This document shows positions 1-616 of a stretch of 616 nucleotides of DNA, in pieces. The stretch is taken from the NCBI RefSeq assembly GCF_003334255.1, contig NZ_QOWU01000209.1; one strand, given 5' to 3'. The translations under genes were made by a program, and so were the position numbers. The notes beneath the pieces were generated by a model. It ran no database searches and was not told where the DNA came from. It worked only from the letters and a program-made list of their open reading frames with translations. Source of the stretch: Escherichia coli. GTDB lineage: Bacteria; Pseudomonadota; Gammaproteobacteria; Enterobacterales; Enterobacteriaceae. Position 1 is the first letter of the stretch. Every line of letters begins with the position of its first letter.

Positions 1-616
1 CCTGAATCAGACGGCCCAATTCATCATATTCCCGGCGCAATTCCAGCCCGTCAGGCCCGGTGGCTGACGTTAACTGGCTGTGGTGGTTATAGTAAAACGC
101 CGATGCCCTGCCATCCGGCGTGGTGATGCGCGTGATGAGGCCCGTCACCACATCCGGACTGTATTCTGTTGTCCTGCCTGCGGCATCCGTCTGTGCCCTG
201 AGCCTGCCCACCGCGTCAAACTGACTCTGCGTGACGCTGCCGTCCGCGTGTTCCTTTTTCACCACCCGCTTCAGCCCGCCTTCACCCTGCGTGTGCAGGA
301 CTTCACGGCGGTTCAGGCTGTCGGTGATGGTGATGCGGTCCTTCTCATACTGATACGTGTAACTTAAGCCTGCCGGGTTTAGCTGTTCTGTCACCCGCCC
401 GTCGCTGTCGTAACGGTAACAGATTTCCGGTCGGCCCGTGTGACGGTGCGCCACCATCCGGCCCCGGTATTTATCATCGTAAGTAAAGCTGCGCACCTGT
501 GTATTGCTGCGGTCATACACCGCCGCCAGTTCGCCGCGGGGCGTCCAGCCATAGCGCACCAGCGGCGCGGCAGGTAAATTCTCCGGGTATTCCGGGTCGT
601 GCGTCAGCCACACGGC
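1..616 (-). CDS. Rhs family YD-repeat core protein, internal fragment (both ends outside window; first complete codon is 616..614, last is 4..2)
   Basis: Seen in sequence: the reverse-complement frame starting at 616 is open for all 205 codons. The translation contains YD-repeat motifs typical of Rhs cores (VYDRSNTQVRSFTYDD, YRYDSDGRVTEQLNPAGLSYTY, FDAVGRLRAQTDAAGRTTEY, YDELGRLIQ) and xDG turn motifs (HADGS, TPDGR, GPDGL). GC is about 61% and third-position GC about 72%. From memory, not a search: the peptide closely resembles the N-terminal part of E. coli Rhs core proteins, but I cannot assign a paralog (rhsA to rhsE) and so give no gene symbol. Confidence 0.93.

What the first reader, a model, noticed from the sequence alone, without database searches (positions are those of the whole stretch)
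1..616. Probable multi-copy sequence: recombination and assembly caveat
Established knowledge: Rhs cores usually occur in several near-identical copies per genome and mediate RecA-dependent duplications and rearrangements, which gave the family its name. Inference: this window may be present in more than one locus, so short-read assemblies can collapse or chimerise it, and paralog assignment from this fragment alone is unreliable.
Basis: inference. Interest (0 to 1): 0.25.

Follow-up and report, generated by a model that had tools for sequence, protein, structure and literature searches.

The report
Repeated Rhs toxin-gene core fragment

Summary
The minus strand is one open frame of 205 codons. 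It aligns end to end with NCBIfam RHS_core and corresponds to codons 293-497 of E. coli K-12 RhsC.

- **Copy number.** 3,885 of 5,426 complete E. coli genomes hold 12,117 copies (median 3, range 1-7). In a 60-record sample, 57 had at least 2.
- **K-12.** The window is 99.5% identical to rhsC, 96.6% to rhsA and rhsB (which are identical to each other here), and 76% to rhsD.
- **Locus cannot be assigned.** In complete genome CFSAN061761 the same sequence type sits at the rhsC, rhsA and rhsB loci. The rhsA- and rhsC-locus genes there are identical over 2,795 bp.
- **The window is a mosaic.** It carries 21 rhsC-type sites followed by 3 rhsA/B-type sites. That haplotype occurs in none of the complete genomes.
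- **Assembly trouble is documented.** Rhs elements break contigs in 454 (pyrosequencing) shotgun assemblies of K-12 strains, and stray Rhs contigs are filed under Klebsiella, Rheinheimera and an Oscillospiraceae MAG.
- **Core-mediated rearrangement is visible.** At least 15 J53-derived genomes carry both reciprocal rhsA x rhsB joints and a relocated ~143-kb segment.

The source genome is unknown, so its own copy number is untested. In a K-12-like background, 100-nt reads still separate this copy from its paralogs. Already known; low interest.

The parts
2..616 (-). Internal coding segment (205 codons, no start or stop) of an Rhs core of the E. coli RhsA/B/C(F) subfamily. It equals nt 877-1492 (aa 293-497 of 1397) of K-12 rhsC and encodes part of the YD-repeat shell.
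   Evidence: Open frame; NF041261 RHS_core positions 301-505/1261, E 1.5e-120; position within rhsC; PDB Rhs cocoon proteins, Tse5 8cp6 E 4.6e-31.
104..220 (-). Best-scoring RHS/YD repeat unit (aa 133-171). Further units lie at window 317-412, 47-145 and 5-91.
   Evidence: Pfam PF05593 hits, i-E 8e-08 to 4.5e-05; coordinates converted.
78..539 (.). Tract in which all 21 sites that separate K-12 rhsC from rhsA/B carry the rhsC-type base.
   Evidence: Site-by-site comparison; painting of 103 diagnostic sites along the core.
18..40 (.). Three sites (18, 38, 40 = gene nt 1475, 1455, 1453) carrying the rhsA/B-type base. The type switches between window 40 and 78, which is a probable gene-conversion edge or a polymorphic patch.
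   Evidence: All three lie at one end of 24 ordered sites, p about 0.001. The junction (window 10-130) recurs exactly in 7 metagenome contigs behind rhsA, rhsB and rhsC upstream flanks.
540..616 (.). 77-base stretch invariant in all 19 gap-free full-length copies compared. It is the longest exact run shared between the window and K-12 rhsA/B.

Best explanation
The window is a piece of the conserved ~3.7-kb core of an E. coli Rhs polymorphic-toxin gene of the RhsA/B/C(F) subfamily, read on the minus strand. At the protein level it encodes YD repeats that form part of the beta-cocoon shell enclosing the C-terminal toxin. This is inferred by homology to solved Rhs structures.

At the DNA level it belongs to a dispersed family of direct repeats, typically three per carrier genome, at the ybfA (rhsC), yibF (rhsA) and nikR (rhsB) loci. 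Homologous recombination between these repeats moves kilobase tracts from one locus to another (gene conversion) and occasionally produces reciprocal crossovers. RecA dependence comes from the 1984 genetics and was not tested here.

As a result the cores are strain-specific mosaics. The window's nearest K-12 relative is rhsC, but the same sequence type can occupy one, two or three loci depending on the strain. The fragment alone cannot be assigned to a locus. Whether short reads can resolve it depends on how far the source strain's copies have been homogenised.
For: **Identity.**

**Copy number.**

**K-12 paralogs.** rhsC 99.5%, rhsA = rhsB 96.6%, rhsD 75.9%; rhsE lacks the region. rhsA and rhsB share an exact run of 1,811 bp and differ at one site over core nt 82-3107. 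rhsA, rhsB, rhsC and rhsD all lie on the same strand of the K-12 record.

**Gene conversion.** The CFSAN061761 rhsA-locus core is rhsA-type at nt 18-219, rhsC-type at 72 consecutive diagnostic sites (nt 561-2407), and mostly rhsA-type (21 of 24 diagnostic sites) from nt 2704. It is identical to that strain's rhsC-locus gene over 2,795 bp. The rhsB-locus gene shares an 820-bp exact run with both.

**Mosaics at all three loci.** Seen in 7 metagenome contigs.

**Reciprocal crossover.** J53-p133 (one of at least 15 such assemblies) has nikR-core-rhsA tip and, elsewhere, yibF-core-rhsB tip. The switch from B-type to A-type falls between core nt 1893 and 3108.

**Literature.** PMC2935791 and PMC3045373.
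Against: - The source genome is unknown. About 5% of sampled carrier records hold a single copy, so this copy could be unique in its own genome.
- The exact haplotype was found nowhere, so its locus and neighbours are unobserved.
- The rhsC/rhsA 'types' are defined from one strain (K-12), so some apparent patches may be ordinary polymorphism.
- The metagenome mosaics could partly be short-read chimeras (contig coverage about 3-10x).
- RecA dependence, and the direction and timing of conversion, are inferred and not shown.
- Jackson et al. 2009 argue that Rhs loci are not natural rearrangement hot spots.
Confidence: 0.9

Rival explanations
1. The window is effectively single-copy in its source genome: either a strain with one RhsA/B/C-subfamily element, or a K-12-like strain whose other cores differ by 3-4%. 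On this reading the assembly and paralog caveat has no practical force for this sequence.
For: 3 of 60 sampled carrier records have one place. Against K-12 rhsA/B the window has 21 mismatches. No 100-nt tile is mismatch-free, and k-mers of 77 or more are essentially unshared. All 21 diagnostic sites between window 78 and 539 are rhsC-type, and most hits of 99% or better lie at the ybfA/kdp locus.
Against: 57 of 60 sampled records have at least 2 copies. CFSAN061761 carries the same type at three loci at 99.0-99.5% identity to the window. The window's own end carries rhsA/B-type bases. 14-54% of k-mers of 21-55 are shared with K-12 paralogs, so assembly graphs still tangle at common k values.
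Confidence: 0.12
2. The window's rhsC-type to rhsA/B-type switch near one end is not biological. It is a chimeric join made by a short-read assembler walking from one paralog into another through a shared exact stretch (window 41-77, 37 bases).
For: The full haplotype is absent from 5,426 complete genomes and from the species-representative collection. rhs mis-assembly producing false variants is documented (PMC3045373). Metagenome contig L017 joins the rhsB upstream flank to an rhsA tip.
Against: The junction itself (window 10-130) occurs exactly in 7 independent metagenome contigs from different samples. Complete rhsC genes of G4/9 and 74-2 already carry the A-type base at window 18. Genuine mosaics with clean breakpoints exist in closed genomes.
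Confidence: 0.1

Closest known systems
E. coli K-12 rhsC (b0700) core, RhsA-B-C-F subfamily of Rhs elements (Hill laboratory nomenclature)
   Same: 99.5% nucleotide identity over all 616 bases, equal to rhsC nt 877-1492. Same frame, and GC-rich like the core. All 21 sites between window 78 and 539 that separate rhsC from rhsA/B are rhsC-type.
   Different: Three sites at window 18, 38 and 40 carry the rhsA/B base, causing two amino-acid differences from K-12 RhsC. Locus membership cannot be claimed, because the same type occurs at the rhsA and rhsB loci of CFSAN061761.
E. coli K-12 rhsA / rhsB cores
   Same: Same subfamily: 96.6% identity, collinear without gaps. The window shares their bases at positions 18, 38 and 40.
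   Different: 21 substitutions (7 amino-acid changes) and a longest exact run of 77 bases.
RhsD-E subfamily core (K-12 rhsD)
   Same: Homologous Rhs core with the same YD-repeat architecture.
   Different: Only 75.9% identity, with gaps, over window 8-616. Too divergent for megablast copy counts or for efficient homologous recombination.
T6SS-associated Rhs cocoon proteins with solved structures (Tse5 8cp6, Salmonella bongori Rhs 8qjd, Tre23 7pq5, Tse15 8uxt)
   Same: Sequence-level homology of the YD-repeat shell (E 4.6e-31 to 1e-14). This supports the protein-level role as part of the encapsulating beta-cocoon.
   Different: Distant relatives. No structure was predicted or compared here. The secretion route of this particular protein was not examined.

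Membership tests
Rhs core protein (NCBIfam NF041261 RHS_core) | End-to-end alignment to the RHS_core equivalog model above its curated cut-off (2000 bits for a full-length protein) | tested here: inconclusive
   The 205-aa fragment aligns without a break to profile positions 301-505 at 403.9 bits, E 1.5e-120. A 205-aa fragment cannot reach a whole-protein cut-off. The full genes at the best-matching loci are annotated RhsC or RHS element core protein.
Rhs core protein | Tandem YD / RHS repeats | tested here: met
   TIGR01643 YD_repeat_2x at 56 bits against a cut-off of 15.8. Four PF05593 hits with i-E of 4.5e-05 or better.
Rhs core protein | Core ends in the PxxxxDPxGL motif, followed by a variable toxin tip and a cognate immunity gene | not testable with these tools
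   These features lie about 2.2 kb beyond the window in gene orientation. The window holds only core nt 877-1492.
E. coli RhsA-B-C-F subfamily | Core DNA within a few percent of rhsA/B/C and more than 20% from the other subfamilies (subfamilies as cited in PMC2935791; divergence figures from memory of Wang et al. 1998, which could not be read here) | tested here: met
   99.5% to rhsC, 96.6% to rhsA and rhsB, 75.9% to rhsD.
E. coli RhsA-B-C-F subfamily | GC-rich core relative to the E. coli chromosome | tested here: met
   60.9% GC over the window, 57-64% in 200-base windows. The E. coli average of about 51% is established knowledge.
rhsC locus specifically (between ybfA/kdp and ybfB) | Unique flanking genes ybfA-kdpFABC upstream and ybfB/ybfC downstream | not testable with these tools
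   The window has no flanks. The same sequence type lies behind yibF and nikR in CFSAN061761, so sequence type does not imply locus.
Multi-copy dispersed repeat | Two or more copies per genome at high identity | tested here: met
   Median 3 places per carrier genome, and 57 of 60 sampled records have at least 2. This is met for the sequence class, not for the unknown source genome.

The most novel reading that the evidence does not exclude
The window spans a genuine inter-paralog gene-conversion junction (rhsC-type up to window 78, rhsA/B-type from window 40 to the end). It would then represent a mosaic Rhs core allele absent from all 5,426 complete E. coli genomes. More broadly, kilobase-scale conversion that can homogenise the rhsA, rhsB and rhsC shells within one strain (as in CFSAN061761) may be a systematic, under-described force shaping the delivery part of Rhs toxins.
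Probability: 0.5. Interest if true: 0.25.

Novelty: already known. Interest (0 to 1): 0.13.

Why it matters
The practical message matters more than the biology. A 616-base Rhs core fragment should not be named rhsA, rhsB or rhsC. It should not be used as a single-copy marker, or for SNP calling or strain typing from short reads, without locus-anchored long reads.

The evidence gathered here turns a generic caveat into concrete numbers:
- the copy-number distribution;
- the exact-run lengths that set the read length needed (77 bp in a K-12-like strain, 2.8 kb in CFSAN061761);
- examples of mislabelled and misplaced Rhs contigs in public records.

It adds nothing new about how Rhs toxins work.

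Tried and rejected
- **Exact-source search.** Window 10-130 gave 0 hits in the species-representative genomes and 7 metagenome contigs. None carries the whole window exactly; the best is L014 with 2 mismatches. The source genome stays unidentified.
- **Conserved 56-mer in the species representatives.** This was meant to count copies in related species. It returned only two stray contigs under non-Escherichia names, so it gave no copy-number information. The E. coli representative apparently lacks an exact match.
- **Other readings of the window.** There is no Rfam family. The only internal repeats are one 19-nt pair and one 15-nt inverted pair, consistent with chance. The plus-strand ORFs (95 aa or shorter) lie antisense to a frame that is open end to end and strongly homologous, so they were dismissed.
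- **Plasmid or phage origin.** Rejected. The 'plasmid' hits are megabase chromosome pieces or tiny non-mobilizable records (six of 2.3-14.6 kb; the two inspected are a 5.2-kb linear and a 10.2-kb circular record). The 'phage' hits are three unannotated 1.6-3.3 kb records.
- **Primary papers.** Wang et al. 1998 and Zhao & Hill 1995 were requested but are not held. Subfamily divergence figures therefore rest on memory plus the summary in PMC2935791.
- **Literature on the J53 rearrangement.** No paper in the library links J53 with rhsA/rhsB or yjgL.

Full report
**1. What is in the window**

Only one of the six reading frames is open. The minus strand, frame 1, runs from base 616 to base 2 without a stop (205 codons). 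Every plus-strand ORF is 95 aa or shorter.

The translation aligns end to end with NCBIfam NF041261 'RHS element core protein', at profile positions 301-505 of 1261, E 1.5e-120. It also hits the YD-repeat model TIGR01643. Pfam finds four significant RHS_repeat units. The closest solved structures are T6SS-associated Rhs cocoon proteins, led by Tse5 8cp6 at E 4.6e-31. GC content is 60.9%, typical of the GC-rich Rhs core.

There is no Rfam match and no meaningful internal DNA repeat.

**2. Which Rhs**

Megablast against 5,426 complete E. coli genomes gives best hits of 99.7% (strains G4/9, 74-2, MLI110) and 99.5% (K-12 rhsC and many K-12 derivatives). No hit reaches 100%. In K-12 the window equals rhsC nt 877-1492, i.e. 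aa 293-497 of 1397.

Against the other K-12 elements:

| Element | Identity to window |
|---|---|
| rhsA | 96.6% (21 substitutions, no gaps) |
| rhsB | 96.6% (21 substitutions, no gaps) |
| rhsD | 75.9% |
| rhsE | lacks this part of the core |

This places the window in the RhsA-B-C-F subfamily described by Hill and colleagues, as summarised in PMC2935791.

**3. Is it multi-copy?**

Yes, as a class. 3,885 of 5,426 genomes carry 12,117 matching places, median 3 and range 1-7. All but two places are on chromosomes. 1,541 genomes have none at this sensitivity.

In an evenly spaced sample of 60 carrier records the counts were 1 (3 records), 2 (3), 3 (42), 4 (8), 5 (3) and 6 (1). About 95% of carriers therefore hold at least two copies. 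In K-12 the three places are rhsA, rhsB and rhsC. The 3'-terminal orphan core fragments do not reach this part of the core.

**4. How alike are the copies?**

In K-12:
- rhsA and rhsB are 100% identical across the window. They share an exact run of 1,811 bp and differ at a single site over core nt 82-3107.
- The rhsC copy differs from them at 24 of 616 sites, with a longest exact run of 77 bp.
- For the window itself, 54%, 40% and 14% of k-mers of 21, 31 and 55 are shared with the other K-12 Rhs loci. Essentially none are shared at k of 77 or more.
- Every 100-nt tile has at least 1 mismatch and every 150-nt tile at least 2.

In such a background the copy tangles an assembly graph at small k but need not collapse.

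In complete genome CFSAN061761 the picture is different:
- The gene behind yibF/selA (the rhsA locus) and the gene behind ybfA/kdp (the rhsC locus) are identical over 2,795 bp (core nt 220-3014), including the whole window region.
- The gene behind nikR (the rhsB locus) differs from both at only 3 sites in the window and shares an 820-bp exact run with them.
- That genome therefore holds three copies at 99.0-99.5% identity to the window. Short reads cannot place them.

**5. Mosaicism and locus assignment**

I painted the 103 sites that separate K-12 rhsC from rhsA along the core.
- The CFSAN061761 rhsA-locus gene is rhsA-type at nt 18-219, rhsC-type at 72 consecutive sites (nt 561-2407), and mostly rhsA-type (21 of 24 sites) from nt 2704. 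This is a clean conversion tract of at least 1.85 kb.
- The window itself is rhsC-type at 21 sites (window 78-539) and rhsA/B-type at its last three (window 40, 38, 18). All three lie at one end of 24 ordered sites, p about 0.001.
- The exact junction (window 10-130) is absent from the species-representative genomes. It is present in seven metagenome contigs.
- Those contigs sit behind rhsA upstream sequence (L011, L013, L014, L016), rhsB upstream sequence (L012, L017) and rhsC upstream sequence (L015). Each has a different mosaic pattern.
- The closest of them, L014 (2 mismatches), is an rhsA-locus gene on both flanks.

Some of these short-read contigs may themselves be chimeras. L017 joins an rhsB upstream flank to an rhsA tip. 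The closed genomes show that the phenomenon is real.

Annotation names do not help either. PGAP calls the rhsA-locus gene of AL.H8 'rhsB' because it carries the rhsB tip and yhhH. It also calls an rhsC-locus fragment 'rhsB'. 'Closest to K-12 rhsC' is the most that can be said.

**6. Recombination and rearrangement**

The name derives from recA-dependent unequal crossing-over between rhsA and rhsB, which duplicates glyS (Lin, Capage and Hill 1984, as recounted in PMC2935791). That paper also states that no natural chromosomal rearrangement via rhs had been reported, and it calls the hot-spot phenotype artefactual.

I probed with hybrid queries and found both reciprocal rhsA x rhsB joints in at least 15 J53-derived complete genomes deposited under several strain-name series:
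- In J53-p133, nikA-R is followed by a core that is rhsB-type up to nt 1893 and rhsA-type from nt 3108. The rhsA tip, yibA, yibG and mtlA follow.
- About 0.75 Mb away (by the shorter arc of the circular chromosome), selA-yibF is followed by a core with the rhsB tip, yhhH and yhhI. This matches a synthetic K-12 hybrid at 100% over 7,236 bp in one piece.
- The ~143-kb interval that normally lies between rhsB and rhsA sits, circularly permuted, between two IS5 copies inside yjgL.
- The 2018 J53 reference has normal rhsB and rhsC loci.

The simplest reading is an inference. The interval was excised by an rhsA x rhsB crossover and re-inserted by an IS5 x IS5 crossover in a laboratory subline.

Smaller core-mediated events are common:
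- the main ORF fused to a downstream orphan tip (300709, H10407, O157:H7 146N4);
- a tandem duplication of the rhsC tip plus ybfB in G4/9;
- an internal deletion in 74-2.

RecA dependence was not tested here.

**7. Assembly consequences**

All five K-12 rhs elements caused contig breaks in the 454 shotgun assemblies of K-12 strains, and one false polymorphism came from an rhs assembly error (PMC3045373).

Public records also show stray fragments:
- a 5,191-bp linear 'Klebsiella oxytoca plasmid' that is E. coli kdpA-ybfA-rhs ending inside the core;
- a 553-bp 'Rheinheimera' contig 100% identical to K-12 rhsA/B;
- a 2,726-bp contig in an Oscillospiraceae MAG with both ends inside the core;
- three short unannotated 'phage' records.

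**8. Verdict**

- Collapse is strain-dependent, because the exact run shared between copies ranges from 77 bp to 2.8 kb.
- The window itself looks like a mosaic.

The one thing that cannot be checked is the copy number in the window's own genome. All of this lies within established knowledge of Rhs elements. Novelty: already known. Interest: low.

Noticed in passing
Outside the window: NZ_CP110999.1 (J53-p133) about 116-122 kb (L027), 3.944-4.088 Mb (L031, L032); the same in at least 14 other J53-derived records: A subline of laboratory strain J53 carries both reciprocal rhsA x rhsB crossover joints. The ~143-kb rhsB-rhsA interval (which holds glyS) is relocated, circularly permuted, between two IS5 copies inside yjgL. 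The 2018 J53 reference NZ_CP028702.1 has the normal arrangement. No paper in the searched library mentions this.
   Followed up: yes
L007 4680-8492, L019 9466-13659, L026 2079-6314 (CFSAN061761, NZ_CP042903.1): The three Rhs cores of one natural isolate are largely homogenised to the rhsC type. The rhsA- and rhsC-locus genes are identical over 2,795 bp. An IS3 also interrupts the rhsA-locus gene just before its toxin tip.
   Followed up: yes
L002 3428-5299 (G4/9, NZ_CP060073.1): Tandem duplication of the rhsC 3' end plus the downstream gene ybfB. The result is a full rhsC, then ybfB, then a truncated rhsC copy, then a second ybfB.
   Followed up: partly
L008 and L009 4293-8492 (300709, H10407); L023 3263-7492 (O157:H7 146N4): The main Rhs ORF is fused directly to what in K-12 is a downstream orphan tip (ybfC-linked at the rhsC locus, yibG-linked at the rhsA locus). 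The K-12 primary tip and its adjacent downstream gene (ybfB or yibA) are absent, consistent with recombination between the core and the orphan core fragment.
   Followed up: partly
L022 (AL.H8, NZ_CP082349.1) 2866-7492; also FDAARGOS_1249, ET82, VTB97420v: Natural strains carry the rhsB tip plus yhhH at the rhsA locus (yibF upstream); in AL.H8 an intact yibA follows. The yibA-like pseudogene at the K-12 rhsB locus may be a remnant of such an arrangement. In AL.H8 the gene has an internal stop.
   Followed up: partly
L020 (NZ_CP069926.1), L024 (NZ_AFHI01000069.1), L025 (JAETOQ010000140.1); phage records OR845342.1, OR844800.1, OR844789.1: E. coli Rhs core fragments are deposited as a Klebsiella oxytoca 'plasmid', a Rheinheimera draft contig (100% identical to K-12 rhsA/B), an Oscillospiraceae MAG contig, and short 'phage' records. 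These are probably contamination or mis-binning in which a multi-copy sequence survived assembly.
   Followed up: partly
L010 4902-8492 (74-2, NZ_CP050044.1): The rhsC-locus gene is about 600 nt shorter than in K-12 (3,591 against 4,194 nt). An internal in-frame gap covers 29 diagnostic sites, between about core nt 2170 and 2890.
   Followed up: no
L017 1-4601 (metagenome contig OBBJ01000659.1): The contig joins the rhsB upstream flank to a complete rhsA tip, the same joint type as in the J53 subline. It cannot be decided whether this is a real recombinant, J53-like laboratory contamination, or a short-read chimera.
   Followed up: partly
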